Positions 732-52,119 of a stretch of DNA of 64,000 nt are shown here, piece after piece. This DNA comes from Chiloscyllium plagiosum (lineage: Eukaryota), in the NCBI RefSeq assembly GCF_004010195.1, contig NC_057753.1, forward strand, positions 6,940,273-7,004,272, in the 5' to 3' direction. A program made the position numbers and the translations under genes. Position 1 is the stretch's first letter. Each line of letters opens with the position of its first letter. The notes beneath the pieces were generated by a model that worked only from the letters and a program-made list of their open reading frames with translations, ran no database searches and had not been told where the DNA came from.

Positions 732-736
732 AACTT

Positions 737-9469: not shown

Positions 9470-12048
9470 ATGCTTCAAACAATTCTACGGGTAGAGAAAA
9501 TTTACTATGTGCTCCTCGCTATATTTGCTATTCCTGGTAAGTGTCTTTAATCAATAAATTAACATAAATCTTTGTAGTTCACTGCTGTATTGTAAATGGT
9601 AATATTACATGCCATCGATTGGTCACAGCTATGCATATTTCCAATCAATAATATGTCTGCACTACTGAATTTGACGTGTTGTCGATGCAAAGTTAATCTT
9701 TTGTCTCTATTGCTTCGACCAAACAGGAAATTTGTGCCACAAGGTAAATTTCTCTTTTGCTGAATAAGACATTAAAACAGGAAAATTTATCATTGGACAT
9801 AATACTTGGTACATCTCGTAGTCTGGAATTATGTAAGTGCGGTCACAGAAGCTGATGACAGAATTACAGTGATCATAAATTATGGGGAGTAATTAACATC
9901 CTCGAAACGCATTTAGTATGTGCTGAGCCACATGACACCACGAACCATATATTTTGTGAAACACCCCTCGTTGTAAAATCATATTCGAACTGGAACATCA
10001 TCTGACCCTGATTCTAAGTAAATTGATTGGCACACATTTTGTGACTTACCAAATTTTCCAAAAACAATCATTTGAATTACTTGGTCACGAGTGCACATTG
10101 CTTAAAAGTATTACACTTCTGAATTATGGAAGAATTTCTCACAAATGTGATCTTTTACCACACACGTTAATTATAAAATAGAACAGGAATTGAAGATAGG
10201 CCAAACCGGATGACTTTCCTCTTCCCATTCTATCAGAGAACTCTCCATTCCAGATCGTTTAAATCTATTCCTATTTTCTCCAGTTCTTGTCCTCCACATG
10301 TACCTATGTCATTTTCTATTAAATGATCTTTCTAAGCAACGATTCCCAGCAATAATTCCGCATTCTGACTGTTCTTAGACTATTATTCCTTAAATTATTT
10401 CGTGAATTTATTGAGGATTGCTTCGTACTGATGACACTTAGAATTGAACGGCATCACAAGTGGAGATATTTCCAGAATGTTTTCAATTTCGAACTCCTTT
10501 ATAATGTAGACATCATTATTTGAAACACCTTCTGCCTACTCGCATCCACAACAAAGATGTTACATTATTTACCAATAATGATAGTCCACAACTTATAATT
10601 CTATTTTTAAAAATTGATTGTCCGTCTGTTCAAAACACTGAATTTTCTCCCCTCATTTACATAGATCATGCCAAGTGTTTTGTAGACATACTTCTGTACA
10701 ACTTCAAAGGACTACTCTTCCCAAAAGATAATTTTGCGGAAATAAGAAAGCCGTGATCTTATTTGCATCGTCTATTTCCAAATTCTTTTTAAAGTAATAC
10801 TTTCTTACACATTTTTCGGAGGCAAATGAGAGTCTTGTACCTGAGCCCAAGACTGTCGCGTGTCTGCTAATCCTTGGTGTTGGTGGGATGAAACCAGTTA
10901 AAAACGCTTAAATGTGTCAGTCAATCCTGACCGACACAGGTCCAGTGCTAAAATCCAAACAAATGGTCTTAAATGTGCTAATCTTTTTTTCCTATTGTTC
11001 ATCTTACAGTGAATATCATGACAGTTGTGATTCTTTCCCAGAGAAAGTGTGGACTCTCCACTTGTACCACATACTATCTGACGGCTATGGCAACGTCTGA
11101 TCTACTGATCATTGTTACTGAAGTCATATTCCGCCGTGTCAATTATCATTATTTCCCAGTAAATTTTCTGAACATCACACCTGTGTGCACGGGTATCTAT
11201 GTCCTGCTTCGAGCAGCTTTAGACTGTTCTGTTTGGTTTACCACTGCTTTCACTTTTGATCGATTTGTTTTCATTTGTTGTTCAAGACTGAAGACTAAAT
11301 ATTGCACCAAGAAAACTGCAGCTACGATTCTCGCAACAACTGTAATTCTGTTCTACCTGAAAAACATTCCAATCCACTTTAGATTTAAACCTGCCATGAT
11401 AATCAACAATATACCATGGTTCTGCTCGAATAAGTTGAGTTACAATACTGACCCGAGATGGATTGGATTTAGGATGTTCGAAAAGGTTTTAACACCAATG
11501 ATACCATTCTTTTTAATTCTGTTACTCAACTCTCTTACAGTCAGATTCATTTTCTTGGCCAGTCGAGCCCGTAAGGCACTGAAGTGTCAGAAGAAAGGAG
11601 GCGATCTCAGAGACACAGAAATGGAAAGCAGAAGAAATTCTGTGATTTTGTTGTGATACCATTCTTTTTAATTCTGTTACTCAACTCTCTTACAGTCAGA
11701 TTCATTTTCCTGGCCAGTCGAGCCCGTAAGGCACTGAAGTGTCAGAAGAAAGGAAGCGATCTCAGAGACACAGAAATGGAAAGCAGAAGAAATTCTGTGA
11801 TTTTGTTGTTCACAATATCAGGCAGTTTCACTCTTCTATGGTTGGTTTATGTTCTGTATATTTTTGGTGTCTTTCGCGCCATTGATCCATTCGGTATACG
11901 TATTCATGTCGCATACATGCTGCGGAACTTAAGTTGCTGTACAAACACATTTCTTTACGTGGCGACACAGTCCAAGTTCAGAAAACAGGTGAAGAGTCTC
12001 CTAATGTATCCAATTGCATCAGTTGTTGAACTATTCACAAAGCTTTAA
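9470..12048 (+). pseudogene. GPR139-like class A GPCR, gene A (exon 1 9470-9536, exon 2 11010-12048); disrupted as assembled by a 155-bp tandem duplication
   Basis: Exon 1 MLQTILRVEKIYYVLLAIFAIP ends G|GTAAG; acceptor TTACAG at 11004-11009 gives V-NIMTVVILSQRKCGLS; TM2 MATSDL, TM3 TFDRFV, TM5 IPF..LNSL, TM6 ILLFTISGSFTLLW, TM7 NTFLY, helix 8 SKFR. Removing one duplicate gives 951 nt = 316 aa plus stop. Confidence 0.9.
11500..11809 (+). repeat. 155-bp direct tandem duplication inside GPCR gene A
   Basis: GATACCATTC..TTTTGTTGT at 11500-11654 and 11655-11809; two mismatches seen (TTCTTGG/TTCCTGG, GGAGGC/GGAAGC). Confidence 0.97.
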
Positions 12049-12109
12049 AGCCCGACATGTGAAGACTTGGATTTCTTTTTCTGTTCTCAAGTCAAAACGG
12101 TAGAATTCG

Positions 12110-13450
12110 GTGGAATGGGTGGAATCAATCCTCTGCTGAAACAGTAGTTTTATTTTAAGTTTTTCAGTACCATTTGCTAGGATCTTAAACCAGGGTTTGG
12201 AACTGCAATTCATCTCTCCCTGTTACTCTTTCTCTCAGAATTTTCTCTTTTTTTTTCTTTTGAACTGGATAATTGCATGTGAGATTATTTATTTTACTGA
12301 CTACATCTTTGACAAGTGCACGTTTATGAGGTGTTACTAAATTGGAATAGTCACTGTTTAGTGGTGAAGTAATCTATTATTCTGTTAGGTTTTCCAATTG
12401 AGTTAAGCTAATCCATTTTGTTACGTCGTGTTTATATTTTAACTACTGTGTATGAATAGAATGTGTTTTGTTTCAAGACTGGTAGATTAACCAATCTGAT
12501 TGGATCCGGAATGCAAAGCCTGACAAAGCCTTTATTACAAGACAACATTAGATTCTAAATTTAATATATTCTAATGAGATCTGCTTTGATCCATAACAAG
12601 CTTGGACTCGTCCGGGATTAAAATCTTTATAATTCCCGATTGTATTTAGGATTATTGGATGTTAAAACAGTGAGTGGCGAGTTGTTGCTTTTTTTTTTTT
12701 CATTTTGATGTTGCATTCCATTGTTTAAAACAGAGTGTGGTTTGTATAATAATGGCTTGTTCAGTCACAAAGACGTTTCTGCGAGTGGGAAAAATCTTCT
12801 CTTGAGGAGTTTTACAGGCAGTGAACTGGGCAAAACTTTTGGAATTGACAAAAAAGAACTGGAGTTTAGTTGCTTACGTTTGTGAGAAAAAGCGAAAATA
12901 TTTGTGGCAATTAGAAGGCATTTAAAATGAATATTAATGGAATTGGAATCTTGGTAGAGCTAAAATGCAAATGAAAATGAAGCAGCTGGAGTTGGCAGCA
13001 AAAAAAAACACTCAACAAAGAGAAAAGGAAATGAAACAATTTTAATTCCGATTAAAAGCAGAGAAAGAAAATGAATCGAAAGCTCCAGCAGTAAAATAGG
13101 AGAAAATACAAGAACAATTGGAGAAAACGAGAGTTTTGGGTATTCAGATCTTGGAACTCCAAATTAAATGTTTACTTGAAGTAACGGAAGCTGAAGGTGA
13201 AAACTGGGATTAGTGACGAGGACAGTGATGAAGAAAAATCCCATCGCAACCAAACCTGCTGAAGTATGACCAAACGCTGCCTAATCTTTACAAGAAAAAT
13301 TTCATTTCTTTTTAGAAAGAGGCGAAAGATATGAAATGACCAGTGACTATGTGACTCCTTTTTGATCCAAACAAGGTTGATACCTGGGGAGTTGAATGAG
13401 ATGAAATATGCTACCTCAAGTGTATATGAGCTAATTCCAGCAGCAAAATA
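12110..13450 (+). mobile_element. Gypsy (Gmr1-like) LTR, tRNA-Pro PBS and decayed gag
   Basis: LTR-like end GATCCATAACA at 12598 followed by TTGGACTCGTCCGGGAT (resembles Pro PBS TGGGGGCTCGTCCGGGAT); decayed gag with E/K-rich coil, F.SF.K.A..M.WP and YELIP. 5' boundary approximate. Confidence 0.7.
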
Positions 13451-16066
13451 TACAGTGTCCTACTCGGGAAGTGCAAACAGACGATCTATTCTTGTGAAAT
13501 AGAACAAGACAGGTGATTGAGTTGGCAGTGGGGACGCTCTTTGGGACCAGTGACCCCAGTTTTATTAACGTTAAGGTAGATACGAAGATGGAAAAAAACT
13601 GCTCCACAGGTTCAATTTCTAAATTGGAGCAAGGCGAATATTCATGGAATTCGACATGAGCTCGGAGGGTTTGATTGGAGTAGCTGGTCTGCAGGCAAAG
13701 TGACCTCTGGCAAGTGGGAGACTTTTGAATGTGAGGTAGCTAGAGGCCAAGGTCTTTATGTTGCTGTGAGGGTGAAGTACAAGGTTGGCAGTGAAAGGGA
13801 AACTTGGATAACATATCGTGACTTTGATCGGAAAAGAAAAACAATGAGGATGTATGTCTCAGGGAAAGGCAGCTGGAATCAAGTGAATCCCTTGAGATGT
13901 ATTGGGGATATTATTGTTTACTGAAGGAAATCAGAGGACGAAAAGGGGGCACGAGATTGCCTTGGGTGGGAAGAATAGTGTGAAACCAAGAATGTTTCTA
14001 AGGATATTAAAGAGAAAAGAAAACTAGAGAGTGAATATTCCCCCTCAAAGGCAAAGGTGGACATGCATGTGTTGACCCACAAAACAAGGGTGAGGTCCAT
14101 AATGAATACTTCTCCTCTGCGTTTACTGTGGAGAAAGACATGAAGACTTGGGAACCTGGGGAAGCCTGTGGTCAATTCTTGGCGACAGTCTATATCATTG
14201 TATTGAAGGTGGATAAATCTCCTGACCCTGGTCAGATATATTCAAGAACACTGCAAGAGGCTAGGGAAGAAATTGTGGTGATCCTGGCTAATAATTTTGC
14301 ATCGATGGTTAGCCACAGGTGACGACCTGGAATACTGGAGGAAAGCGAATGTTGTTCCTTTACTCAAGAAGAGCTGCAAAGAAAACCCTGGGAACTATAG
14401 ACCAGTTATCCTAATATCTGTGATGCTACTTGATAATATTCTGAGTAATAAGGTGTACATGCATTTGGAAAGACAGGTTTGATTAGAAGCAGTCATTGCG
14501 ACTTTGTGCGTGGGACATCATGCCTCAGATATTTGTTAGAGATCTTTGATGAAGTGACCAGGTAGGTTGATGTGGCCAGGGCTGTCGACGTTTCGATATG
14601 GATTCCAGTAAGGTCTTTGATAAGATTCCACAGAGAAGGCTGTTCTGAATGTTAGATCTCTGGAATCTAGTGCAGCTGGCAAATTGGATACACAATTGGC
14701 TTGATGGTCGGAAGCAAAGGTTAGTGTCATGATGCTTGTCGGACTGGAGGCCTGTGACTTCTGGAGTGCCTCAGGAATCGGGGCTGGACCCATTGCTGTT
14801 TGTTATCTATATTAATAATTTGAATGAACACGCACGAGATGTCACTAGTACGTCTTCGGATGACACTGAAATAGATGGTATCATGGATAGTGAGGAACGT
14901 AACTAAAAATTGCAGCAAGGCATTGATCAGCCCGGAAGTGGACTAAGAAACAGTAAATTGACTTTAATATAGGTAAGTGTAAGGTCTTGCATTTTGGAAA
15001 CTGAAATTAATGTTGGAGAACCGTGGTGAATGGATGGACCTCAACGATTGCAGTGGAACAGAGGGACCTTGGTGTTCAGATGCATAGTTCACTAAACGTG
15101 GAGTCACAGGTAGACAGGACAGCGAAGAATGCTTTTGACACATCAGTTAAGCATTGAGCATCGAATGGAGAGAATGCAGAGAGACATAGATAGGATGCAG
15201 AGCTGGGCTGAGAGGTGGCAAATGGAGTTTAATGTGGACAAGTATGAGGTGACACACTTTGGACGGAGTAATCGGAATGCAAAGTACTGGGCTAATGGTA
15301 ATTTCTTGGGAGTGCAGATGAGCAAAGAGATCTCAGTGTCCATGTACACAGATTCCTGAAAGTTTCCACCCATATTGACAGGGTCGTTAAGAAGGCATAC
15401 AGTGTTTTGGCCTTTATTACTAGAGGGATTGAGTTCCAGAACCAGGAGGTTATGCTGCAGCTGTACAAAGCTCTGGTACGGCCACACTTGGAGTATTGTG
15501 TACAGTTCTGGTCACCACATTATAAGAAGGATGTGGAAGCTTTGGAAAGGTTAGTATAGGTGGGATGGGCTTCAGATTAGTATGACAGGGCGCAACATCG
15601 AGGGCCGAAGGGCCTGTACTGCGCTGTAATGTTCTATGTCCTATATGTTCTATGTTCTAATCTAGAACTTTTGTCTTCAGAGCATCGGAGTCTGAGTAAC
15701 GGTCTTGAAGAAGTATATCGGATTATGAGAGGCATGGATAAGGGGAATGCACTTAGTCTTTTTTCCCAGGGATGGGAAATCGAAGACTAGAAGGCATTGG
15801 TTTAATATTTGAGGGGAAATAATAAAAGGGAACCTGAGGACGGATTTTTTACAAAGAGAGTGTTACACATATGAAATGAGCTGCTGGCAGAAATGGTTGA
15901 GGTAGGTAAATTAACAAAATTTAAAGGGCATTTGGAAGATTACATGAATAAGAAAGATTTAGAAAAATATGGGCTAATTGCTGTTAGCAGAGGTGGGCAT
16001 TTCTTTCAACATGGACCAGTATGTACCAAAGTGCTGTCGGACTCTATGACTCTTTATGACTCTAAG
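13450..16066 (+). mobile_element. Degenerate CR1 ORF2 containing a younger nested CR1 fragment (about 15165-15660)
   Basis: KSPDPGQIYSRTLQEAREE, ANVVPLLKK..PGNYRPV, 3' tail ACTCTATGACTCT; nested piece MQRDIDRMQSWAERWQMEFN..HLEYCVQFW with (ATGTTCT)n tail and an internal deletion. Confidence 0.85.
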
Positions 16067-16079
16067 TCTAGCGACAATG

Positions 16080-21560: not shown

Positions 21561-21854
21561 GACAATAGACAATAGACAATAGGTGCAGGAGTAGGCCATT
21601 CAGCCCTTCGAGCCGGCACCGCCATTCAATATGATCATGCCTGATCATTCCTAATCAGTATCCTCTTCCTGCTTTATCTCCATAACCCTTGATTCCACTA
21701 TCTTTGCTGCTAGAGTGTCCAATCCTTTCATAATCTTATACGTCTCAATCAGATCCCCTCTCAGTCTTCTAAACTCAAGGGTATACAAGCCCAGTCGCTT
21801 CAGTCTTTCAGTGTAAGGTAATCCCGCCATTCCAGGAATTGACCTCGTGAACCT
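21561..21854 (-). mobile_element. Short CR1 3' fragment, same subfamily as 1-731, internally deleted
   Basis: Near-identical to the reverse complement of about 253-399 joined to about 596-731; (TAGACAA)n tail; flanking ATGTTA direct repeat at 21555-21560 and 21855-21860. Confidence 0.9.
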
Positions 21855-21939
21855 ATGTTATTTTTGGTATCCAAGTATACAGCACACAAACAGTTTTTAC
21901 TACTGCATGAGAAGATAGGTAGAAATAAGAGGGGAATAC

Positions 21940-24900: not shown

Positions 24901-26943
24901 CGGATGAATGAACACCACTCAACAATCAGCAGACACGAGTCTTCCCTCCTAGTTGGAGACCACTTCAGCATTCCGAGATATTCGACCTCGGACCTACAAG
25001 TGACTGTCTTCCAAGGTAGACTTCGTGACAGGCAACAACGGAAAGTGGCAGAGTGGAGGCTGATAGCCAAGTTTGGGACCCATGGGGATGACCTCAACTG
25101 GGACCTTGGGTTCATGTCTCATGCGGGTGACCTTACTGCACTACACACCCATAATCGAGACACAGAAACCGAGACACAGACACACACACATAGAGACTCC
25201 TACACACGCACACTCCTACACACACATTCCTACTGTCACACACACTCCTACAGACATGCACACACTCCTGCAATGCATACACACACGCAGACCTTCTCTC
25301 ATACACAAGCTCTCTTTCATATGCTCACACAGACACTCCCACACACGCACCCTCACAGACTTGTGGCCCTTTACACTCTCACACACAAACACACTCTGTC
25401 ACAGAAGTTCATAATCCACCGCACAAACACACCCACATGCAGCAACAGAAATATAAGTTTGTGGGGTGAAGTTGCACTTGAGAATTAAATTTTATTTTGT
25501 TCAAAAACTGCATGAATCCACGAAACATTCTGTAAGGCGGCTGAAATTTGTGGCACAGACAGTCTCACACAGAGCATCTCAACCATCAATGCATTATCTA
25601 GGCCGACATGACAGCAATTGTTAAAGTTCACTTGAGAGTGTAACTTCAAAAAATTGTATGCTTTAAATATGAAAGAACGGAAACAAACATGCCCATTCTA
25701 AAAGATGAGAGACTTAACAAACAACCCAGGCCTTTTCAGTTTACAGTTTCAGCTGTATCAAACTGCAAACCGTTGCCACAAATTCTGTGTCTTATGATGT
25801 TATTCTCCACACCAACCTGATGAAGGAACAATGCTCCGGAAGTTAGTGCTTCCAAATAAACCAGTTGGACTAGAACCTGGTATTGTGTGACTTTTAACTA
25901 TCAACAGAAATATTCGGCAAATCTAATGGAGACTTTCAGCTTGCTGTTGGAGTTGCAACATTTTAACATTTATGTCAACGGTAATACATTTGAAGCATTC
26001 ATATTTACTGTTCATACCCCATTGAAGATTTTTAGCAACAAATATCCAGACTATTTTGGTGGAGATTGCTTTTACATTCAGATTGAAAATTGTGCATGTG
26101 GCAGGGCAAGAAAACATGATTGCCAACGCATTGTCAAGACTTGGATGAGAAACCGAGGTATTCAGCGGTGGGAATATACAGACTGATATAGAACGTAGTC
26201 GCGCATGTTCGCATGGTTACAGTCAAAGTAATGCACGTGTGTTGCAGTGTGCTAACAGGGTAATACTAAAGGGTTTAAAAATGAAGCGTTCTTTGAATAT
26301 TGATCGTTCACTTTTTTAAGTGGGAAGAAGCAATGATTCTGCCTTTTTAATAAGGTCATTGTACCCTTTTTATCGAGAGTGGTTAGATGCCGATTTGTCT
26401 GAACTGGCTACTTTAATAATGGCTAACGTCCTTAGTCAACAACCAGAGGAGTCCTTTAGGAATCTTTGTTGAAATACTTACAAAATGAAAGGGAGCTCCG
26501 GGAATTTTCTCGTTTGGTTTAACTTTAGCTGGGCACCTATCAAAAGCTGCGGTCATTGAAAGAGGTTTCATGTTTCAAAGAATGGTCCCTGGCCGATTCT
26601 CTCTTTCTCTCTTGCATCTCTCTTGGAAGAAACTCTGCCTCAGTTTACCTTTATGCCAAGGTGTGTGTTTAAAGAATATTGCAGGATATCAGAACAGCTC
26701 TTTGTTAAGTTGGATTGTATCGACCAGATTTTCACTGCGTGGTTATTCTGCATTCTGTTTTCTTTTGTTTGCTTTTAGTTTTGTAGTCTGTAAATCAATT
26801 TTGCTTTGTTTATAACTGAATGGGTTGACAAGCTGCATCATTTCTGGAATGCCCACATTCCACATGCATAAGACAACTAAAAGCATTACGGTCTGGGCTA
26901 ACCTCTTGAAATGTTATGAGAAGATTTGGCCGAGTCCATAACA
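21940..26943 (+). mobile_element. Gypsy (Gmr1-like) RT-RNase H, PPT and 3' LTR, interrupted by a MITE and a Penelope element
   Basis: EIESMLQDDII..SGWSS, YWQI, FVTP..QFKFMSFDMKNATAMFQRL, FYIDD, INLAK..VTFLDH, FKVAIEASD, HQQKYS, FTVHTPL; purine tract AAGTGGGAAGAAG near 26318; LTR about 26330-26943 ending GTCCATAACA. No integrase after RNase H. Confidence 0.85.
23183..25899 (+). mobile_element. Penelope-like element (RT, GIY-YIG endonuclease, CA-rich tract, terminal repeat), frameshifted
   Basis: VIKP.EKGG, PGQPI, LVTMDVSALYTSIPH, LDHNIFTF, APQYANIF, RYINDIF, CDSANVVYLIHC..YITETMQRLQQRMNEH; flanking 12-bp direct repeat ATCAACAGAAAT (23171-23182, 25900-25911). Confidence 0.93.
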
Positions 26944-27882: not shown

Positions 27883-29243
27883 TTATTCACATTTTTTTTT
27901 TAATTTGAGGAGGTGCTTCCATAAAAATGTAACTACATTCTTCATCTCGTCTCTGAATTTGCTCTGTGTTATTGTATATATACAAGGGTTAAGAAAACAA
28001 CTCAACATCTTTAGCATATTTCCTGCTTCAGTTATGATATATTCAGCGTTTGTGACGTTGCCTCGGTAATAATTAGGGTGGGACAGTCTGGTAATAATCA
28101 AACTCAGAGAATATGTCAACCAAACCATTACGAAACTGAACGAAACAGAGAATAATAGAATGATGGATTTCCTACGGCATTCCATATCTGAATTATTGTG
28201 ATTCTCATTTCTGCGTCCTTGGAATTCAAGGCGGATTCTATTCGCCATCAAAATACGATGGATAGTTAAAGAATTACACATGAAAATTAGCAGAAATGGA
28301 ATCCAAACAATCCAGGCGCAGTAAAACCAGACAAACGATATTCCCGGAGATGAAGCTAAGAAACTTAAACTTGTTTGGCACCCCCACGGCAATTTATTAA
28401 TGATTTGTTCAGGCTCATATAGAAATAAAACCGGAACATTCTTTAACAAGTTCAGGACTGAGATGATTATTAACACTCTGGTGGCAGTTCTTTTGGTGCA
28501 ATACCATGTGTTGAATTTCTGAAGGCAAATCATCACAAATCTGTCAAGTGTGAAGGAAACTGTGAACCAAACATTTAAATCGAGTGCGATTGCGATCATG
28601 TATATAATAAGTTTGCAGACAGGCGTGTAGGATAAGAAGGAAAAGGGAAAGTAGTAGCTGAAAATTCGATACACTACAATGCTATTGATAATAACCAATA
28701 GATCTGCTGTTGCCATGGCCACCATGTAAACGGAGATGCACTTGGAAAGTCCACAGTTTCCTCGCAAAATGATTAAAATAGTCATCAAATTCGCTGTAAG
28801 AGAGACAGAAAATATCTCAAAGCATCACTGCAATAAACATGAAGACATTGAAAGAGTATTTGAAAACATTCTAGTTGATATTTTACATACTTAATTAATC
28901 CAACATTTTCTTATGCTAGTGCAGATATTCTGCTTGGTATGATGAGATCATTTAAAGGTTAACAAACGTATATTTATAGAACGTTATTATTACACCAGAA
29001 ATATTTCAGATAGCAGCAAAAAATGGGAAATGTCCACCACCGTTTCTTCATCTTATGCTAGTAACAATCCATTGCGGAAAAGTGACATTGTTAATCAGGC
29101 TATTTTGACAATATGCAGCATTAGCAATGACAAATTAGCATTGACTCAAGCCAAAGAGGTTAGAATGACTCACCTGGGAAGCAAAGAATTGCAAGAATTG
29201 GGTAGTAAATCTCTTTCAAAAGCATAATCACTGGCTTCGCCAT
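27883..29243 (-). CDS. GPR139-like class A GPCR, gene B, intact (exon 1 29243-29174, exon 2 28793-27883; 326 aa)
   Basis: Exon 1 MAKPVIMLLKEIYYPILAILCFP ends G|GTGAGT; 380-bp intron ends CTTACAG; splicing gives A-NLMTILIILRGNCGLSK; MATADL, TLDRFV, PWGC, IPF..CNSL, SIILLFSVS..VW, NPCIY, SKFR; 981 nt uninterrupted. Confidence 0.93.
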
Positions 29244-29869
29244 CACAGAGCATAAATTATTAATAGGCTTTGATTGCCTGTGACTGGTGCATGAGCAAGG
29301 GAAGGACAGGTATATGCATTTATGCACACATCAGACCTCCAGAGATTCATTAGTGTTAAATCATCTTTCACGTCAATTTGAACTATAGAGAAAAACAATC
29401 AGTTCCTTTCAGGTCTTACCCATGAAATAAAAGAAAGCCTGACTCTGGTATCACATACGTCGCTTAAATTGCTCTATGTATTCACCTGGTCCTCATTTCA
29501 TGTATATACCTTATTTCTGAACTTAGGCAGTTACCTGCCTATAAAATGAACCTATCCTGTGTATCCGTTTCATCTCATCTATTGTCATTCCAAACGTGAT
29601 ATATTGCAGTGTTTCTCCTAACTGCCAAATGAAGCATTTGGGTAGATATAACACAATCTAATAGAGGTTAATTTTCTGATAGTGTATATTTAACTGGAGT
29701 AATGAATGATGCAATGTGAATACTATGGCTGCCATCTTGGAGATTCACTATGTTCCGTATCCCACATCAGATGAGGTACAGGACGAGTTGAAACCTGTCA
29801 AGTTGTCACCCTTTCCAGAAGTGGGGCAAACTGCGAGCAAATATAATCTGATGAGCCGAATAGCTCTTA

Positions 29870-36242: not shown

Positions 36243-36264
36243 ATTGTTCTTGACATACACATTA

Positions 36265-39200: not shown

Positions 39201-42200
39201 GTCACCACTAGTGCCCCTGCTGACTATATCTGTGGGAAGTGCACCCAACCGCGTTAGGAACTAGAGCTGGAGTTGGATGAACTTCGGATCATTCGGGACG
39301 CAGAGGGGGTTATTGGCAGGACTTACAGAGAGGTAGTCACTCCCCAGATAAAAGAAAAAGACAGATGGCTGACAGTTAGGGGACAGAAAGTGAACCGGCA
39401 GGCAGTTCAGGGATCCTCTGTGGTCATTCCCCTCAACAATAAACATACCGTTTTGAATACTGTTGGGAGGGGGGGGGGGATGACTTAACAGGGGAAAGCA
39501 GTGGGGCACCTGCTGCTCAGAAATGAAGAGGGAAGAGGAGCAGAGCAGTAGTCATTGGGGACTCGATAGTTGGGCGACAGATAGGAGGTTCTGTGGGGAG
39601 GAGAAAGACTCACGGTTGGTGTGTTGCCTCCAGGGTGCCAGGGTCCGTGATGCCTCTGATCGTGTTTTTGGGATCCTTCGGGAGGGCGGGGGAGGGGGAG
39701 AGCAGCCCCAAGTCGTGATCCACATTGGCACCAATGACATAGGTCGGAAGATAGATGGTGTCTTGAGGCAGAAATTCAGGGAGCTATGATGGAACCTTAG
39801 AGCTAGGACAAACAGTTGTTTTCTCTGGTTTGCTGCCCGTGCCACGTGCTAGTGAGGTGAGGAATAGGGAGAGAAGGGAGTTGAACACGTGGCTACAGGG
39901 ATGGTGCTGGAGGGAGGGTTTCTGGTTTTTTGAAATCTGGAGCTATTTCTGGGGTAGGTGGGACCTCTACAAGGAGGATGGTCATAATCAAAACCAGAGG
40001 GATACCAATATCCTGGGTGGGAAATTCGCTGAAGCTATTAAGGTGGATTTAAACTAATACAGCAGGGGGATGGGAACCAAAATTGAAGGACAGGTACAGA
40101 AAAGGATGAGATAGGGAGTTCCCAAATCAAGTATCTGAAACTGGCAAGCGAGAACCTGGTTTGAAGTGTGTGTACTTCAACGCGAGGCGCATCTGGAAAA
40201 AAGTAGGTGAACTGGCAGCGTGGGTTGGTACCTGAGACATCGATGTTGTAGCCATTACGGAGACCTGGATAGAGCAGGGGCAGGGATGGCTGTTGCAGTT
40301 TCCGGGATTCAGATGTTTCAGTAAGAACAGAGAAGATGGCAAAAGAGGGGGAGGTGTGGCATTGTTGATCAGGGACAATATTACAGTTGTAGAAAGGATC
40401 TTTGGGGACTCATTAACTGAGGTAGTATGGGCTGAGGTTAGAAACAGGAAAGGAGAAGTCACCATGCTGGGAGTTTTCTATAGGCCTCCGAATAGCCCCA
40501 GAGATGTAGAGGAAAGCATAGCAAAGATGATTCTCGATAGGAGTGAGAGAGGCAGGGTAGTTGTCATGGGGGACTTCAACTATCCAAATATTGACTGGGA
40601 TCACGACAGTACGAGTACTATAGATGGGTTAGTTTTTGTCCAGTCTGTGCAGGAGGGCTTCCTGACACAATATGTAGACAGGCCTACAAGGGGAGAAGCC
40701 ACTGTAGATTTAGTACTGGGCAACGAACCTGGCCAGGTGTTAGATTTGGAAGTAGGTGAGCACTTTGGTGAGAGCGATTACAATTCTTTTATATTTACTT
40801 TAGTGATGGAAAGGGGTAGGTGTACTCCAGCGTAAAGAGTTACAACTGGGGGAAGGGAAATTACGATGCAATTAGGAAAGATTTAGGAAGTGTAGAATGG
40901 GAAAGGAAACTACAGGGGATGAGCGCATTAAAAATGTGGAGCTTATTCAAGGAAAAGCTCGTGTGTCCTAGATAATTATGTACCTGTCAGGCAGGGAGGA
41001 AGACATAGAACGCGTGAGCGTGGTTTGCTAAGGAAGTGGAATCCCTGGTCAAGGAGAAGAAGGCGGCTTATGTTAGGACAAAATGTGAAAACTCAGTTAG
41101 GGCGCATGATGGTTAAAAGGAAGTCAGGAAAGACCTAAAAAGAGAGCTCAGAAGAGCCAGGAGGAGACATGAGAAGTTGTTGGCGGATAGGATCACGGTT
41201 AACTCTAAGGCTTTCCATGGATATGTCAGGAATAAATGAATGACGAGTTAAATTAGGGTCAATCAAGGATAATAGTGGGAAGTTGTGTGTGGAGTCAAAG
41301 GAGATAGGGGAAGCACTAAATAAATATTTTTCGGCAGTGTTCACTATAGAAAATGAAAATGTTGGCGAGGAAGATACAGAGATACTTGCATCTAGACCAG
41401 AAGAGATTGAGGTTCACAAGGAAGAAATATTAGAAATACTGCAGAGTGTGAAAATAGACAAGTCCCTTGGGCCGGATGGGATCTAAACTAGGATCCTCTG
41501 GGATGCAAGGAAAGAGATTGCCGAGCCTTTGGCATTGACCTGCAAATCATCATTGTCTACAAGAATAGTGCCTGAGTACGGGAGGATAGCAAATGTGGTT
41601 CCCTTGTTCAAAAAGGGTGGGAAAGACAACCCTGGTAATTACAGACCAGTGAGTCTCACTTCAGTTGTTGGTAAAGTGTTGGGAAAGGTTATAAGAGGTA
41701 GAATTCATAACCATCTCGAAAAGAATAATCTGATCAGGACAGTCAGCACGGTTTTGTGAAGGGTATGTCGTGCCTAACGAATCTTATTGAGTTTTTTGAC
41801 AAAGTGACCAAACAGGTAGATGAGAGTAAACCGGTTGATGTGTTGTATATATGGATTTCAGCAAGGCGTTCGCTAAGGTTCCCCACAGTAGGCGATTATA
41901 CAAAATGCAGAGGAATGGGATTGTGGGAGACATAGCAGTTTTGATCGGTAATTGGCTTGCTGAAAGAAAACAGAGGGTGGTGGTTGATGGAACATGTTCA
42001 TCTTGGTGTCCACTTACTAGCGGCGTACTGCAAGGTCGGTGTTGGGTCCACTGCTGTTCGTCATTTTTATAAATGACTTGGATGAGGGCTTAGGAGGGTG
42101 GGTTAGTAAATTTGCGGACGACACTAAGGTCGGTGGAGTTGTGGATAGTGATGAAGGATGTAGTAGGTTGTAGAGAGACATAGATAGGATGCAGATCTGG

Positions 42201-45200
42201 GCTGCGAGGTGGCAAATGATATTTAATTGGACAAGTGTGAAGTGATACACTTTGGACGGAGTAATCAGAATGCAAAGTACTGGGCTAATGGTAGGATTCT
42301 TGGGAGTGCAGATGAGCAGAGACAACTCGGTGTCCAGGTACACAGATCCCTGAAAGTTGCCACCCAGATTGACAGGGTGGTTAGGAAGGCATGCAGTGTT
42401 TTAGCCTTTATTAATACAGGGTTTGAGTTCCAGAACGAGGAGGTTATGCTGCAGCTGTACAAAGCTCTGGTACGGCCACACTTGGAGTACTGTGTACAGT
42501 TCTGGTCACCGCATTATAAGGATGTGGACACTTTGGAAAGGGTACAGAGGAGATTTACTAGGATGTTGCCTGGTATGAAAGGAATGTCTTACGAGGAAAG
42601 GCTGAGGGCCTTGAGGCTGTTCTCGTTAGAGAGAAGAAGGCTGTTCTCGTTAGAGAGAAGAAGGTTGTGAGGTTAATTAATAGAGACATACAAGATAATC
42701 AGAGGGTGAGATAGGGTGGACAGGGAGAGCTTTTTTCCAAGTATGGGGACGGCAAACACGTGGGGACACAACTTTAAAGTGAGGGGAGATAGGTATAAGA
42801 AAGATGTCAGAGGTAGTTTGTTTACTCAGAGTAGTAAAGGTATGGAATACTTTGCCTGCAACGGTAGTAGATTCGCCAAGTTTATGTGCATTTAAGTCGT
42901 CATTGGACAGACATATGGACATACATGGAATAGTGGAAGTGGGATGGACTTCAGATTAGTACGACAGGGCAGCGCAACATCGAGGGCCGAAGGGCCAGCA
43001 CTGCGCTGTAATGTTCTATGTTCTAATCTCAACTCCCTCATCTTTCTCTTTACTTTTCACTTCGTGGTGACTTATTTTAGTGGGATCTGCTTACCACACT
43101 GTCTGGGAAAGTACTAGGATATTGCTGTTTTTAATCACTCGGTTTCTTCTTCTTCCTTGGGCTTTTCCACAACAAGCAGTGTCACTCTCACGTTGGATCC
43201 TGCCAAATCATTCCCAAGAATGAAATTAATTCCGGGAAATAGCACTCTGTCAATCACTCCTGCTGTAACTTCCACAGACCTAAGTTGGCACTCCTACCTG
43301 GTCTTTTATAGGGGAACTTAAACATCTGTCCATCTATCCCACAAACTTTCACATTCTAGCGTAACAGATCATAAACGGTGTATATTCGGTCATCTCTTAC
43401 TATCACCAACTCGTTAGATCCTGCATCACTCAAAATTATAACTTCTTGCCCTTCTCCCACTGTCCGTTCTGAGTAAATTTAATCCACATGTGAATTCTTT
43501 GTAGAAATCAGGTACTATCTTCATTTGCAGCCCCTGCCTATGCTGTCCTCTCTCCTGCAGATGCTCGATTCTTTTTGGTCTCTGCTTTATTACCTTCATT
43601 CGTGCCACTGGCTTAGCTTCCTTTACCACATCCTATCCCACAGCACCTTTCATTAACAACCAGCACTGAAACTTCGTGTGTCCCACTTTACCATACTGGC
43701 AACATTTGAGGCCTTCCATTTCATTTGCACCCTCTTGAGCTTCTTTTTAATCCTGTGGTAATTTTTTTAGCAGTGCTCTCTACTCTTGGTTTTATAGTAT
43801 AGGATCATCCCTTTTCCCAACTTCTACCACTCACAGGTTAAAATTTTGGCTGGAAGCTTGCCTGAAGCACCAACATGTATTCAACTGCTAATTCTGCTTC
43901 CCTTCTCACTTCATGAACTTTTTGTTCCTTCACGTGAATTCTTACCATCTGTGGAAGTGAGTTTTTATTTTTTTCCATCAGAATAATCTCTCTTAGAGCC
44001 TCATAGGTCTTAGTTATTTTTAAAGCACGCACCTATCTATCAAAATGACTATGTTTAATTCTTTCGAAATCACCGTAAGTTTGACCTGGCTCTTTATTTG
44101 TGTCTCTGAACCGCTGTCTTAATGCTACTGGTACTAAATCATAAGTACTTACATTACTCTTTCAGTTTGTCCTAATTTCTTAATCCCTAATCTGACAGCG
44201 GGGTAAATACCTCACAAGCTCTGACAAACAGTTTAGCCTGAATTAGCATTACCCATTAATACTCGAACAACTCCATTTTCCCAGCCAATTTTTCAAATGA
44301 AATAAAGAAGACTTCAACATTTTTCTCATCAAAACGTGGCAGACCTTTGGCAAATTTCTATATCTCGACCTTCTCTTTTCATCTCTGTTCTGTTGACTTT
44401 GCTGAATAATTAGCAACATCTCAAGTTCAAATTATATATTTTGCTGAGCAAAGAGCCTTCTCTCTCTTTCTTTCTCCTCTCCCTCTCTTTCTCTTTCCCT
44501 TTCTTCTCTCTCTTTGCTCAGCAAATTACATTCTCTTTCTATTTCGCTTTCTCTCTCCCTTTATATATCTTCTAACTCCATTTTCCTCAATGGTAATTTA
44601 ATTTTTTCTACCTCTATCGCACTTGTTGGTATCTCTGACAGTCCTAAGAGTTTGAGTAACTCCCTTACAATTTCAGTTTTGCTTTTGTCCTTGGTTAAAC
44701 CCAAATCTACCTTTATTTGCTAATTCTAAACGTATGATAGTTTTTCTTTCGTTTTAAACTTTCTTGGCAAATCTGCGAATCAGGTGTAAATCTTAAAACG
44801 TCTTTAGGAACTTGAAGAGCCATTTTTCTCTCTTTTAATTGAATCAACTGCAAGTCACCGAAATTAAACAAATTACCTCATCTACGCTGTCTTTAAAGAT
44901 TTAGGTCAGTAACCTGCAACTTTTTACATCTGCTGATACTATTCGTTCACCCAAATCCATTCAAAGTTGTCCAAACCAGTTCAAATTCCGGAAGGGGCCC
45001 CCGAACTGTTACGACACGGGATAAGCCCTCGTGCTTAATTCAAACCAGAAACAGAAGATTTATCCCGTGCAGTAATCTGTGAAAATTTGAGAGGCCAAGA
45101 GCTACTTCAAGTTCAATAAACAACTTTATTTCTTGAAGTGTAACATAAGTTAATTATTTAACAATTATTTACATCTCCTTCCTCTAAGCTATCTTTTACT

Positions 45201-46530: not shown

Positions 46531-46621
46531 ACCTCTCTTTCAGAAAGTCATTACAAACTCTCATTCTTCCCGTGGTTTTGTTAGCTTGCACGTTAGATCT
46601 GCCTGACACCATAGACTGCAG

Positions 46622-46844: not shown

Positions 46845-47112
46845 ACCATAGACTGCAGCAGATCAAGAACATGATCAAGCACCAACGCCCGAAGTTTAAT
46901 GGGGCACCCAGTGACAGCAACGTACTGGCAATGAATAAAGGGAACTCGCCAAAAGGAAAAAACATAAAGTTATAAAATGCCTTAATTACTGGTAAATTAT
47001 TGAGAAAATTTGTCGATGACAACTTGAAAGAAATGGAGTATAACCTTTTTAAACAAGAGAAGCATGCATTCTATTGACAGTGGAAAGTGACTCAATGAAG
47101 TGATTTTCTTTC

Positions 47113-48430
47113 AAAGTTAAAAATCACACAGCACCAGGTTATTGTATAACAGATTTAATTGGAAGTACTGGCTTTCGGAGTGCTGATCCTTCATCAGATG
47201 GTTTAAGAGTATGAGATTCTAAGACATAGAATTTATAGCAAAATTTACAGTGTATGTAACTGAAATTATATTTTGGAAAAGATGTGGATTGTTTGTTAAA
47301 TCTCCCATCTGTCAGAATGATCATGTTGGTTTAAATTCTTTCATATGTAAATTGCAAAACTGTTTAAAAGTTACATTCTCAAGTGAAATTTAACAATTGG
47401 TGTCATGTTGGCAGAGATAATGTATTGAAGGCGTGAGTTTCCCTGTGTGAGATTGTTTGTGCCACAATGGTCAGACTTATTCTAATCTAAAAATCACACA
47501 GGCTTACCGAATCTTAGATGGATTCATGCAGTTTTTGAGCAAAGTAAAATGTAATTCTGCAAGTACAGATTTACAACGCAAACGTATATGCGTATATGTG
47601 CATGTGGGTCTGTGTTTGGTGGGGAATGGGGCTTATGGGTGTCTGAGAGAAAGTATGTATGTGTTTGAGTGTAAAGGGGTATAGGTCTGTGCGAGGGTGC
47701 GTGTGAAAGTGTGGGAGTGTATGAGAGAAGGTTTGCTTGCGTGTGTGTGACTGTCGGAGTATGTGCATGTTTGTTTGTAGTGTGACATGAACCCAAGGTC
47801 CCAGTTGAGACCATCCTCATGGGTACTGAACTTGGCTGTCTGCCTCTGATCGACCACTTTTCATTGTTGCCTGTCCCAAAGTCTGCTTTGGAGGATGGTC
47901 CGTGGTCGAATGTCCTTGACTGCTGAAGTGTACTTTTAATGGTAAAGAACACTCCTGTCTGTTGATTGTTGTGCGGTTTCCATTCATCTGTTGCCATAGC
48001 CTCTGTTTGTTCTTGACAATGTACCATGCCTCAGGGCATCCTTGTCTGCAGCGTATGAGATAGACAACGTTGGCTGGGTTGCATGAATACCTGCCACGGA
48101 CATGGTGGGAGGTGTCCCCACGAGTAATGATGTACGTGTCGACAATTTGACACATCTTGCAGCGTCTACCATGACAGGGTTGCATGGTATTGTCTGAAAG
48201 CCAGGCAGTTTGCTACGAACAATGATCTGTTTGAGGTTTGGTGGGGGTTGTTTAAAGGCGAGAAGTGGAGTGTGGCTAAGGCCTTGGCGAGGTACTCATC
48301 CTCATTGAAAATGTGTTGCAGGCTGCGAAGAACATGACTTCCTTTTTTTTGGATCCTGGGAAGTACTGGACCGTGAAGGGCATCCTGTTGGTTGCTGCCC
48401 GTGTCTGTCTCCTGAGGAGGTCATTCCAGC
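47113..48430 (-). mobile_element. Penelope-like element 3' portion (GIY-YIG, CA-rich tract, terminus)
   Basis: QPCHGRRCKMC..YSCNPANVVYLIRCRQGCPEAWYI; same terminal sequence as 25440-25899 in reverse. Confidence 0.9.
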
Positions 48431-50264
48431 TCCTCTTAATGTACCACTGCATACAGAAATACTGAGCTGATAATTAAGTTTTGAGAAGATAAATTGCACA
48501 AGAATATCTGGACTTCATTTGTTTCAACATTTCGATCAACTCACGATAGGCCTTCACTATTCTCCTCATGATTCTGAAACGGGTTACAATCTTTTCTATA
48601 GGTTATGCACTTCTTATGGCTCGATACAACGCTTGTATGCCATGGCAAATCAAGTACACATTAAAATACTTCTCAACAGTTATAAGTGTTTCGGCCTTCT
48701 GCACTTACAGACAGTGAGTTCCATTTTCACACTATCCTCTTGAGTGATTATTTACCTCACATTTCCTATAACCCTCCTGTTATTTGCTTTCTGTCCATCC
48801 TCCAGACCCCGTCACGGATTCCTCCTCCAAAGGGAATATTTCCTTCCTGTCTTTGCTGGCTATGTTCTTCGCATTATTATACTTGCGTTACTTTATACGT
48901 CCCCCTGAATCTTTTCTGCTCCAAGAAAACAAAGTAAGTCTACAAATCTATCTACATAATGTCAACTTTCAAATATTGGCACTGTTATGCTTGATCTTCT
49001 CTGAACCCTCTTCGATACCACAAGATCCGTCCAATACTTTCCAGAACTCTAACTGTGGTCTCGGCATTTTCTTTGCACTTCTCTAGGAAGCTGTTGTTTT
49101 TTATTTCTTTCACAAAGAAAGTTCCCAACATGTGTAACTGGCTACGCTTCAGGATGCTAAAGTAAAATGTCATCATTTACAAACTGTACTTGAATCAAGG
49201 GATAAGAGAGAAGGGCAGTGCAATGAATGTTCGATCATCTGTGATGCCATTGAATGAAATAATAGACTCGAGGGAACGAACATCTTATTCCTGCTCAGAT
49301 TGATTATGGTCTTATGGAACAGAGCGAACTTTCAAGACTGAGAAAAGAAAATCGGGAGAAATTGAATGAGTGCGTGTTTGGTGGGACAATAAACATCTTC
49401 TGCGATGTATCCCTATTGAATTTATTCTATTATCCAATGAAGTTTCGAAAAGGGTTGTGAGAGGTCGTGTGCATGACACGTCAACGTGGATTCGAAGGAT
49501 ATTCGATGAAACGTCACACAAAGTCATATTGAACAAAAGTGAAGCCCTTGCAATTGAAAGGGCAGTGAGATGGGAAGTTTCAATTTTTAAACTTTTATAA
49601 TTGACTTTGACATTTGTGGAGAATATTTGGGCATTTGAATGAAATCGTAGGTAACTGAAATACTGGAAAACTCAAGTATGGCATCAGGTAACTGAAAGTT
49701 TGCACTGCCGAAAAGTACAGCACTTCAGTGAACTCTCAGTTTGAGCAGGGAATGGAAGATTTAATCGTAAGCATGCGAGTTATACTTAAACGTTTCTAAA
49801 ACTTCCAACATCACATGATATCACATAATTGACTCTCTGGAGACCCGATGTGTTTATAATTGCAAAGACGTTGGTCGCTCAGCAGCCACAGACTTTCAGA
49901 AAATACAGCAGTCATTGATTCTCGGATATGGGGAAACCAGTAATTTTGCTCTTGAATGAAATATGCTATCCGATTCTTGCATTTTTTTGTATTTCAGGTG
50001 AGTCATTCGATCCTTTGTGCTTTCAGTCAGTGTATTATTTTTTCATTGATAATGCCCTGTTGCATAAAATCCTTTACCGATGTCAACATTTTATAATATA
50101 ATGTTACCACGACAAATTCAAGAACGGTCTGCAGACACTTTCCAGACTTTACCTTCCTTAAACGTTCTAATAACGTAATAAAAATGTTCTGTGCAATTTT
50201 CTTTTTCCTTAATACTTTCCCTGTTACTAAAGCACACTGAATAACAACTCTACCAGCAATGGCA

Positions 50265-50625: not shown

Positions 50626-50714
50626 ACTTAACAAATCTGTATTTGAATTGAGTTCAAATAGTTATGAAGAATCTTCACCTGTATTTCAATCATGCATTGG
50701 TATAAAACTGAGGG

Positions 50715-51060
50715 TTGGGTGATGGACTAGTGATATATTCGCTGGACTACTAATGCAGGGAACCAAATGATGCTCTGGAGACCTGCTCTCGAATTCTGCT
50801 AGGTTAGGGGTGGAACTTGAATTTCATAAGAAATCAAGAATTAATCCAATGACGGTCAAGAATGCATTGCTGATTGTCAGAAGAAAAAAAACAACATACT
50901 TAGGTCACTAACATCCTTTAAAGAAAAGAATTGCCACTTTTTCATTGTCTAACTGACATAAGACTGCAGATGCTTAATAATGTAGTTCGTTCTTTGTTGC
51001 GCTCTGGGGAATTAGAAATGGGCAATGAATGCCCCTCCAGGTAGTGACACTGACATTCAA
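50715..51060 (+). mobile_element. Degenerate tRNA-headed SINE (SacSINE/DeuSINE-like) in the intron of gene C
   Basis: Head GTGATGGACTAGTG..CTGGACTACTAAT, ..GGTCACTAACATCCTTTA.. and tail GGGAATTAGAAATGGGCAATGAATG, resembling recalled shark Deu-domain SINEs. Confidence 0.5.
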
Positions 51061-52119
51061 TACATAACTTTTTTTAAAGTACTTACTTTCTCTTTGTCCT
51101 TTGCAGCGAATTCGATGACGATTTTTATTCTGTTGCGAGGAAACTGCGGCCTTTCCAAGTGCATATCTGCTTACATGATTGGGATGGCAACATCAGATCT
51201 ATTGACCATTATCATTAATGCTCTGGTGTATCGCATTTTGAGTTATTATTTTCCATTTTCCTTCTTGTCTCACACACCTGTGTGTTTATTCAATACCTAC
51301 ATGAGTGCTATTACTCTCGATTTAAGTGTTTGGTTCACCGTTTCTTTCACATATGACAGATTTGTGATGATCTGCTGTAAGGAGTTGAAAAGAAAGTATT
51401 GCACTAAAAGAACCGCGACCATTGTATTAATAATCATCTCAGTCCTGATCTCGCTGAAGAATATTCCGCTTTTGTTTGCATATGAGCCTGAGAAGAACGT
51501 TCAAAATGTCCCGTGGGGTTGTCGATCAAGGGGAACTTTCTTTGCTTCACCTCTTGGGATGACGTTTGTCTGGGTTTACTACGCCTCTGTTGCCTGGATT
51601 CCATTTCTCCTAATATTCATATTTAATTCCTTAACCGTCCACCGCATTGTTGTGGCGAATAGAACACGTATTGGACTCCAGGGACACAAAACAGAGACTC
51701 GTAGAAATTCGGAGATGGAGAACCGGAGGAAATCCATGATTTTATTATTCTCTGTCAATAAGCTTCATCGTGCTTTGGTTGACATACTCCCTGTGTTTGG
51801 TAATCACCAGAGTGTCACATCCTAATTATTACCGAGGTGACTTGACAAACCCTGAATACATCGCAACGGAAACGGGAAATGTCCTGAAGCTGCTGAGTTG
51901 TTTTCTTAATCCATGTATTTATATAGCAACACAGAACAAATTCAGAGAACACCTGAAGAATATAGTGAAATCCATATGTAAACAAACCCTCAGATTATAT
52001 TAAAGAATGATCAAAGTAAATCTACTTTGTCAGGACAACAACATAGCTGAGAGAGCATTTCACATATATCAAAAAAAAAACAATACATTTCACTTCGACT
52101 CTAGTACTGTACACAATGT

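What the first reader, a model, noticed from the sequence alone, without database searches (positions are those of the whole stretch)
9470..52003. Cluster of divergent GPR139-like receptors evolving by birth and death: candidate expanded shark chemosensory or nutrient-sensing family
Seen: three paralogous 7TM genes within 43 kb in both orientations, one intact and two with single recent lesions. Each has only about 10 residues before TM1 and differs most in the extracellular loops. Established: mammalian GPR139 and GPR142 are single-copy aromatic amino-acid-sensing receptors, and elasmobranchs have small classical OR repertoires. Inference: clustering, compact structure, loop divergence and pseudogenisation are signatures of chemosensory-type families, so these may be an uncharacterised amino-acid or peptide sensing repertoire.
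Basis: partly seen in the sequence, partly recalled or inferred. Interest (0 to 1): 0.8.

Follow-up and report, generated by a model that had tools for sequence, protein, structure and literature searches.

The report
Large orphan shark receptor gene family
These three shark genes belong to a large, apparently undescribed family of cell-surface receptors whose binding pockets differ widely from copy to copy, the pattern seen in smell, taste and immune-surveillance receptors, but where they are active and what they detect is unknown.

Summary
The three two-exon class A GPCR genes are real: B is intact, A carries a 155-bp tandem duplication and C a 2-nt deletion. Either lesion could be an assembly error. 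They are not GPR139/GPR142 orthologues. They belong to a large elasmobranch clade: all 120 best named hits are from sharks (10 species, up to 30 distinct proteins in one species, many on one chromosome), and a skate member also turned up. Databases mostly auto-name them 'probable GPR139'. The closest relatives are two apparently single-copy genes and a small amphioxus set. At matched overall divergence, the ligand pocket is the least conserved transmembrane class among shark paralogues (0.50) but the most conserved among single-copy orthologues (0.78, 0.97), while the G-protein side stays conserved. GPR139's Trp/Phe site is not kept, so amino-acid sensing is unsupported. The short N-terminus is ancestral rather than a sensory signature, and loop divergence among the three genes is not significant. 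B versus C gives dN/dS 0.34. Best reading: an old multi-ligand detector repertoire with one shared signalling output. Expression is untested, so sensory, immune-sentinel and endocrine roles remain open. Ten literature searches found no description of the family.

The parts
9470..9536 (+). Gene A exon 1 (ATG to mid-TM1, 22 codons + 1 nt; GT donor at 9537)
   Evidence: nhmmer E=4e-11
11010..12048 (+). Gene A exon 2 (rest of the 7TM to the normal stop); deep subfamily, 42-43% identical to B and C
   Evidence: (7tm_1 E=6.5e-13)
11499..11808 (+). 155-bp tandem duplication in gene A (TM5-ICL3-start of TM6); frameshift, stop at 11654-11656; real or assembly artefact
   Evidence: 98.7% identity
29174..29243 (-). 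Gene B exon 1 (ATG at 29243; GT donor follows 29174)
27883..28793 (-). Gene B exon 2; intact, 326-aa receptor in total
   Evidence: 7tm_1 E=3.2e-20; 7 helices, pLDDT 84
49928..49997 (+). Gene C exon 1 (GT donor at 49998)
51107..52003 (+). Gene C exon 2; 2-nt deletion near 51756 in TM6 shifts the frame; 67% identical to B, 79% to Chiloscyllium plagiosum P0006
9369..9391 (+). Candidate shared proximal promoter element upstream of A (TGGAG, then a TATA-like ATAA 13-14 nt later); lead only
   Evidence: pattern chosen after seeing the alignment
29320..29341 (-). Same candidate element upstream of B
   Evidence: B-C upstream similarity p=0.011
49838..49859 (+). Same candidate element upstream of C

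Best explanation
The window is a slice of an old tandem cluster of an elasmobranch-expanded orphan class A GPCR family. The family is a cousin lineage of GPR139/GPR142, not a set of copies of them. SHOWN: one ancestral two-exon gene, which survives as an apparently single-copy gene in amphibians and sturgeon, multiplied to at least tens of copies per shark genome in many deep subfamilies. The copies kept the activation motifs and the intracellular face (ICL1, inner TM halves) but changed the residues lining the orthosteric pocket. INFERRED: each copy binds a different small molecule or short peptide inside the helical bundle (there is no N-terminal domain), and all copies feed one shared G-protein output. 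Together they would work as a broad chemical-detection repertoire for outside-derived ligands, in the manner of ORs, T2Rs, FPRs or MRGPRs. Copies are gained and lost because any single one is dispensable. The most likely site is chemosensory or barrier cells (nose, taste buds, skin or gill chemosensory cells, gut); this last step is untested. A conserved acid at 3.37 (D in 78-80%) under W6.48 may anchor a ligand amine (speculative).
For: Family size and range: 120 of 120 best named hits are from sharks, 10 species, with 30 Heterodontus, 30 Pristiophorus and 23 Heptranchias clusters at 90% identity; a skate member; 26 single-linkage groups at 60% identity among 165 proteins. Pocket test: 28 pocket positions have mean identity 0.50 in 116 paralogues, against 0.60 for other outer-half positions (p=0.03) and 0.71 for inner halves (outer vs inner p<0.001). 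In single-copy orthologues the pocket is the most conserved class: 0.78 vs 0.61 in SC1 (n=92; overall TM identity 0.66, matching the paralogues' 0.65) and 0.97 vs 0.79 in SC2 (n=21); rank contrasts p=3e-6 and 3e-9. There are 27 distinct 8-residue pocket patterns among 28 Pristiophorus paralogues against 1 among 21 SC2 orthologues. Purifying but loose selection, dN/dS 0.34 (0.25-0.48), means functional genes. Context: cartilaginous fishes average 43.8 olfactory receptor genes despite many sensory neurons (PMC10869828) and lack MAS1-related receptors (PMC8455134).
Against: There are no expression or ligand data. A variable pocket does not separate sensory from immune or endocrine use. The pocket-vs-other-outer contrast is significant in only 2 of 7 paralogue sets (p=0.03, 0.03; the others 0.06-0.40), so relaxed constraint after duplication could give much of the pattern. 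No dN/dS above 1 was seen. Pocket positions come from generic class A numbering (recalled list), not from the model's coordinates. Catshark olfactory neurons are all TRPC2/Go microvillous cells with robust V2R expression, and the top-50 olfactory-library genes held no GPCR. Shark ORs themselves are expressed mostly outside the nose, and a conserved OR is immune-expressed. The wider GPR139 group is ancestrally neuropeptidergic. Two of the three genes here may be broken only in the assembly.
Confidence: 0.55

Rival explanations
1. Immune or barrier sentinel receptors (FPR/MRGPR-like) on granulocytes, mast-like cells or skin sensory neurons, detecting microbial, parasite or damage peptides. This shares the multi-ligand mechanism of the best explanation but not the organ.
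For: Same pocket pattern; sharks lack MAS1-related receptors; immune expression of OR-kappa is a precedent; short N-termini, tandem clusters and gene turnover are MRGPR features (recalled).
Against: No sequence tie to FPR or MRGPR: the family profile's best PDB hit is GPR139, then peptide receptors. No expression data.
Confidence: 0.22
2. Receptors for endogenous neuropeptides or metabolites in brain or endocrine tissue, subfunctionalised by expression rather than by outside ligands.
For: GPR139 is a CNS receptor for Trp, Phe and peptides; the sister protostome clade binds W/Y/F-amide neuropeptides; the model's nearest folds are peptide receptors such as ghrelin receptor and NTSR1.
Against: Receptors with one endogenous ligand keep their pocket, as SC1 and SC2 do; the shark paralogues do the opposite. 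A matching expansion of peptide precursors is not known to me (recalled, not searched).
Confidence: 0.12
3. Largely neutral copy-number drift: a duplication-prone, transposon-rich cluster in slowly evolving shark genomes, in which most copies are redundant or decaying.
For: 2 of 3 local copies look broken; the spacers are full of retroelement relics; many family hits are partial; dN/dS 0.34 is loose.
Against: dN/dS is well below 1 over dS 0.60; subfamilies are shared across shark orders; inner TM halves and ICL1 are held at 0.71 and 0.87 identity while the pocket varies.
Confidence: 0.08
4. Duplicated GPR139/GPR142-type aromatic amino-acid (nutrient) sensors.
For: Human GPR139 is the best PDB match of the family profile (99.6 bits vs 80.0 for NTSR1); two coding exons in both; W6.48 kept in 158 of 162 and H5.42 in 76 of 162.
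Against: E3.32 in 0 of 162, R6.51 in 1, N7.39 in 8, F3.33 in 16; no protein keeps more than 3 of the 6 site residues. Gene B alone scores only 25.5 bits on GPR139, no better than the motilin or BLT1 receptors.
Confidence: 0.05

Closest known systems
Human GPR139 (and GPR142)
   Same: Best solved-structure match of the family profile; class A; two coding exons; similar TM1, TM5 W-x-H and TM7 patterns in the alignment.
   Different: Distant (25.5 bits for gene B). The agonist site is not kept. The shark family has the TM3-ECL2 cysteines (C3.25 in 100% of 116), whereas GPR139 has D at 3.25. P6.50 is mostly lost in the sharks. GPR139 is single-copy and 70% identical between human and zebrafish.
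SC2: apparently single-copy 'GPR139-like' gene of amphibians and sturgeon (P0213 Pleurodeles, P0389 Xenopus, P0414 Acipenser)
   Same: Sister or co-orthologue of the shark expansion (joint clade 96/98); same short N-terminus.
   Different: One hit per species; pocket almost invariant (0.97); 26-27% identical to the window genes; no function found.
SC1: apparently single-copy 'GPR139-like' gene of sharks, bony fishes, coelacanth, amphibians and reptiles (P0228 clade); possibly Rinne et al. 2019's GPR210
   Same: Same short N-terminus; gene models lacking exon 1 start their homology at the same TM1 point, implying the same intron; 27-29% identity.
   Different: Separate clade (100/100) with its own shark orthologues (P0269, P0272, P0276); conserved pocket (R6.51 in 92 of 92). 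The link to GPR210 was not tested: the supplement held no usable sequences.
Vertebrate chemoreceptor families (OR, TAAR, V1R/ORA, T2R) and sentinel families (FPR, MRGPR)
   Same: Works-like resemblance: clustered, many-copy, compact class A receptors with a variable pocket and conserved inner face.
   Different: No sequence membership: Pfam gives only 7tm_1. It arose independently from the GPR139 lineage, and expression is unknown.
Protostome FMRFamide/MIP/myosuppressin receptors and nematode srw chemoreceptors
   Same: Sister group of GPR139/142; Atlas neighbours include Srw-bearing nematode clusters and rotifer clusters; srw is a peptide-receptor-derived chemoreceptor expansion (recalled).
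   Different: Separate expansions; the window proteins do not match Pfam Srw.

Membership tests
Class A (rhodopsin-like) GPCR | Seven TM helices and class A fold | tested here: met
   7tm_1 E=3e-20; AF2 model pLDDT 84, helix count fits; Foldseek TM about 0.7 to class A receptors
Class A (rhodopsin-like) GPCR | N1.50, D2.50, D-R3.50, P5.50, N7.49-x-x-x-Y7.53, C3.25 | tested here: met
   All present in A, B and C (DRF variant; 7.50 is P in B and C, T in A); P6.50 absent
GPR139/GPR142 orthologue | High identity to GPR139 (70% human-zebrafish) | tested here: not met
   25.5 bits, E=8e-5 vs figure in PMC7318219
GPR139/GPR142 orthologue | Agonist site E3.32, F3.33, H5.42(5x43), W6.48, R6.51, N7.39(7x38) | tested here: not met
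   A keeps 1 of 6, B and C keep 2 of 6; at most 3 of 6 in 162 proteins
GPR139/GPR142 orthologue | Single copy per genome | tested here: not met
   Up to 30 in one species among 120 hits
GPR139/GPR142 orthologue | Nests with GPR139 or GPR142 in a tree | not testable with these tools
   No true GPR139/142 sequence was among the 386 proteins then stored; the trees lack them
GPR139-related supergroup | GPR139 is the nearest characterised receptor | tested here: met
   Profile 99.6 bits vs next 80.0; SC1 protein 70.4 vs 43.9; Foldseek did not single it out (rank 11)
GPR139-related supergroup | Intron in TM1 at the same codon as in GPR139 | tested here: inconclusive
   Two exons in GPR139; the exact human position is recalled, not checked; SC1 position inferred from truncated models
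OR/TAAR/V1R/T2R chemoreceptor families | Sequence membership (7tm_4, V1R, TAS2R profiles) | tested here: not met
   No such Pfam match at E<=0.1 for 5 of 5 segments
Chemosensory-type repertoire (works-like) | Many clustered paralogues | tested here: met
Chemosensory-type repertoire (works-like) | Pocket variable among paralogues, conserved among orthologues | tested here: met
   (p=3e-6 vs SC1, 3e-9 vs SC2); the orthologue sets are sister genes, not orthologues within the expansion
Chemosensory-type repertoire (works-like) | Frequent pseudogenes | tested here: inconclusive
   2 of 3 broken locally, but assembly error is not excluded; no genome-wide count
Chemosensory-type repertoire (works-like) | Positive selection at pocket sites | tested here: inconclusive
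   Only pairwise dN/dS was possible: 0.34 overall, 0.35 in the pocket
Chemosensory-type repertoire (works-like) | Sparse expression in sensory cells; response to external ligands | not testable with these tools
   No expression data; the catshark atlas supplement was unreadable
Nematode srw | Pfam 7TM_GPCR_Srw match | tested here: not met
   Not among matches; only an Srx score under its cut-off for C

The most novel reading that the evidence does not exclude
A further vertebrate chemosensory receptor family, recruited independently from the GPR139/neuropeptide-receptor lineage and hidden under a wrong automatic name. It would be expressed sparsely in shark olfactory, taste or solitary chemosensory cells and be as large as or larger than all known shark olfactory receptor genes together, which would explain how sharks have large olfactory organs with only about 44 recognised receptors.
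Probability: 0.3. Interest if true: 0.9.

Novelty: new variant of a known kind. Interest (0 to 1): 0.68.

Why it matters
Published counts give cartilaginous fishes the smallest olfactory repertoire among vertebrates (mean 43.8 genes) and describe them as GPCR-poor. One subfamily search already gives 30 distinct members in each of two species, comparable with the 35 catshark V2Rs. Whatever its tissue, a pocket-diversified receptor family of that size has been missed by surveys that start from the six known chemoreceptor families. Existing shark organ and single-cell RNA-seq can test it directly. The single-copy sister gene in Xenopus offers a laboratory handle on the ancestral ligand and cell type.

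Tried and rejected
(1) A fourth copy or remnant: none found by hmmsearch --max or nhmmer. Other tblastn hits come from transposon-derived ends of database gene models, and the 1.8-kb inverted match beside gene C looks like a retroelement gag-protease relic. (2) A recent species-specific triplication: rejected by AU tests. (3) Foldseek could not rank relatives; all class A peptide receptors scored alike. (4) An olfactory-type promoter: no consensus O/E site within 1.5 kb of any gene (patterns recalled). A's upstream region is not significantly similar to B's or C's (p=0.70, 0.39), and the shared short motif occurs 4 times in the window against 3.1 expected; only its position is suggestive. (5) No tRNA or Rfam hit. 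Whether chimaeras, lungfish or cyclostomes have the expansion is open. (7) True GPR139/142 could not be placed in the tree. (8) Marra et al. 2019 (white shark genome) was not held, Hara et al. 2018 was not read, and the catshark atlas supplement was unreadable; any of these may mention the family. bioRxiv supplements were closed.
Full report
1. Observation. The window is 40% GC, rich in retroelement relics, with one 136-N gap. It holds three receptor genes, each with a 67-70-nt first exon and a phase-1 GT-AG intron one codon before N1.50 of TM1. Gene B (minus strand, 29243-29174 and 28793-27883) is intact at 326 aa. Its exon 2 matches Pfam 7tm_1 (E=3e-20) and folds as a seven-helix bundle (pLDDT 84). 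Gene A (plus, 9470-9536 and 11010-12048) has a 155-bp tandem duplication whose copies differ at 2 positions; it stops the frame after 237 aa. Gene C (plus, 49928-49997 and 51107-52003) lacks 2 nt in TM6 and ends after 262 aa. Each lesion is single. I could not tell real lesions from assembly errors: two haplotypes placed head to tail would also give A's pattern, and the window has one other near-perfect tandem unit of 30 bp or more (43 bp at 5011). Core identities are A-B 0.42, A-C 0.43 and B-C 0.67. No fourth copy exists in the window.

2. What it is. A search with B exon 2 gave 539 proteins at E<=0.001 among 2038 candidates, of which I saw the best 120. All 120 are from sharks (10 species), and 113 are auto-named probable or putative GPR139. 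They include 30 Heterodontus, 30 Pristiophorus and 23 Heptranchias clusters at 90% identity. These are lower bounds from one subfamily's neighbourhood. Many share a longest-contig length (18 of 30 Heterodontus, 9 of 9 S. canicula, 7 of 7 S. torazame), which I read as chromosomal clusters. Two further Heterodontus members list other contig lengths, and one member is from the skate Leucoraja. The unnamed 50% library gave 92 hits at E<=1e-30 and then a steep fall; 46 full-length representatives group with the named shark proteins, but their taxa are unknown. The best hits to B and C are carpet sharks (67-79%), so the window is probably from an orectolobiform (inference).

3. Relatives. Two apparently single-copy genes emerged. 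SC1 (Latimeria P0228) has 51-66% identical hits near the top of the list, with named members in sharks, sturgeon, teleosts, amphibians, turtles and squamates; no mammal or bird was named among the 120 listed of 145. SC2 (Pleurodeles P0213) occurs in frogs, a caecilian and sturgeon. Amphioxus has a small set, three of them on one contig. In a 68-row ML tree (LG+G4) the expansion plus SC2 form a clade (96/98), SC1 is separate (100/100) and holds its own shark orthologues, and amphioxus lies outside; the join of SC1 with the rest is weak (81/73). Monophyly of the expansion without SC2 is weak (78/47). True GPR139/142 could not be included. A lies in a different deep subfamily from B and C. One clade for A+B+C (p=2e-66) or B+C (p=0.011) is rejected (groups follow from the window, not from the tree). 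So the cluster is old and mixed. The family profile's best solved relative is human GPR139 (99.6 vs 80.0 bits), which explains the automatic name. The single gene B scores only 25.5 bits on it. The family has C3.25 where GPR139 has D, and the six agonist-site residues listed in PMC7318219 are mostly absent: E3.32 in 0 of 162, F3.33 in 16, H5.42 in 76, W6.48 in 158, R6.51 in 1, N7.39 in 8. The short N-terminus is shared with SC1, SC2 and amphioxus, so it is ancestral.

4. How it most likely works. I compared column identity by position class. The sets were 116 full-length named paralogues (4 of 120 dropped as partial), 46 representatives, 92 SC1 proteins (of the 120 listed) and 21 SC2 proteins; the 28 pocket positions come from a recalled generic class A list. 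Paralogues: pocket 0.50, other outer-half 0.60, inner half 0.71, ICL1 0.87. SC1, at the same overall TM identity (0.66 vs 0.65): pocket 0.78, other outer 0.61, inner 0.67. SC2: 0.97, 0.79, 0.77. The rank contrast at pocket positions has p=3e-6 and 3e-9. Columns and related sequences are not independent, so these p-values are optimistic. Against a strong reading, pocket-below-other-outer was significant in 2 of 7 paralogue sets. B vs C gives dS 0.60, dN 0.205 and dN/dS 0.34 (0.25-0.48), and 0.35 in the pocket; A is saturated. Shown: many functional copies, a conserved signalling side and divergent pockets. Inferred: different ligands per copy and a shared G-protein output, i.e. a detector repertoire. 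Not shown: tissue, ligand and G protein. I put 0.55 on a repertoire for outside-derived chemicals in sensory or barrier epithelia (0.3 of it on strictly sensory cells). The rivals get 0.22 for immune sentinels, 0.12 for endogenous peptide receptors, 0.08 for drift and 0.05 for GPR139-type amino-acid sensing; these overlap slightly.

5. Upstream DNA. TGGAG followed 13-14 nt later by ATAA lies 69-101 nt before all three start codons, 3 of its 4 occurrences in the window. The pattern was chosen after the alignment, its total count is at chance, and only the B-C upstream similarity is significant. It is a lead for a shared core promoter.

6. Literature. Ten searches of the held library were run (terms combining GPR139, receptor 139 or GPR142 with shark, elasmobranch, cartilaginous, amphioxus, expansion, olfactory). 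None returned a description of this expansion. What I saw of each paper: PMC7318219, passages and section 10; PMC6504862, passages and a supplement search (names a GPR210 orphan with three sets near GPR139/142; sharks do not occur in the text); PMC8557429, passages; PMC6368271, abstract and section 4; PMC10869828, passages; PMC11979771, passages, supplement unreadable; PMC8455134, passages and all 24 supplements searched with no hit; PMC10620051 and PMC7677710, passages; PMC13113109, abstract; preprints 10.1101/2022.11.27.518102, 10.1101/2025.02.19.638963 and 10.1101/2024.09.09.611499, passages. Marra 2019 was not held and Hara 2018 was not read. Subscription papers are mostly missing, so absence from print is not proven. 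The genes are visible to anyone in NCBI annotation under the GPR139 name.

7. Verdict. A real feature: a new variant of a known kind (lineage-specific receptor expansion), from a lineage not known to have produced one in vertebrates. Interest is 0.68, and 0.9 if sensory expression is shown (probability about 0.3).

Noticed in passing
window 703-1011 (+): Degraded C2H2 zinc-finger fragment (Pfam zf-H2C2_2 below cut-off), the only non-receptor, non-transposon coding trace seen.
   Followed up: partly
window 43283-45085 (-) and 52152-53934 (+): Two 73%-identical inverted copies of a 1.8-kb element with a DTG protease-like motif, probably LTR-retrotransposon gag-protease relics; one starts about 150 nt after gene C.
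   Followed up: partly
window 5741-7237, 13491-14716, 39484-42667, 60619-61861: LINE (CR1/L2-like; name recalled) RT and endonuclease relics.
   Followed up: partly
window 23423-25485 and 47105-48424: Two 72-77% identical inverted relics resembling Penelope-type RT/GIY-YIG elements (label recalled; no Pfam hit).
   Followed up: no
window 249-399 and 21707-21857: 151-bp inverted match at 97% identity, the youngest dispersed repeat pair in the window.
   Followed up: no
window 5011-5096: Perfect 43-bp tandem duplication; a possible second example of the process, biological or assembly, that hit gene A.
   Followed up: no
P0272 (Stegostoma) and P0370 (Hyla): SC1 proteins annotated as TMEM183A isoforms in both a shark and a frog, suggesting SC1 lies beside TMEM183A: a synteny marker for this unnamed conserved gene.
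   Followed up: no
SC2 set (P0213, P0389-P0410, P0414): The amphibian/sturgeon gene has S1.50 and N2.50 instead of N and D, and an invariant polar pocket (Y3.32, K6.51, K6.55, E6.58, R7.35), suggesting one conserved, possibly anionic, ligand (inference).
   Followed up: partly
database proteins P0121-P0248 and others: Many gene models have wrong N-termini or transposon-derived ends because the tiny exon 1 is missed, so family counts from annotation are unreliable.
   Followed up: partly
gene B ICL1 and ICL2 (residues 35-42, 111-123): Several family-wide conserved cysteines on the cytoplasmic side, candidates for palmitoylation or metal binding.
   Followed up: no
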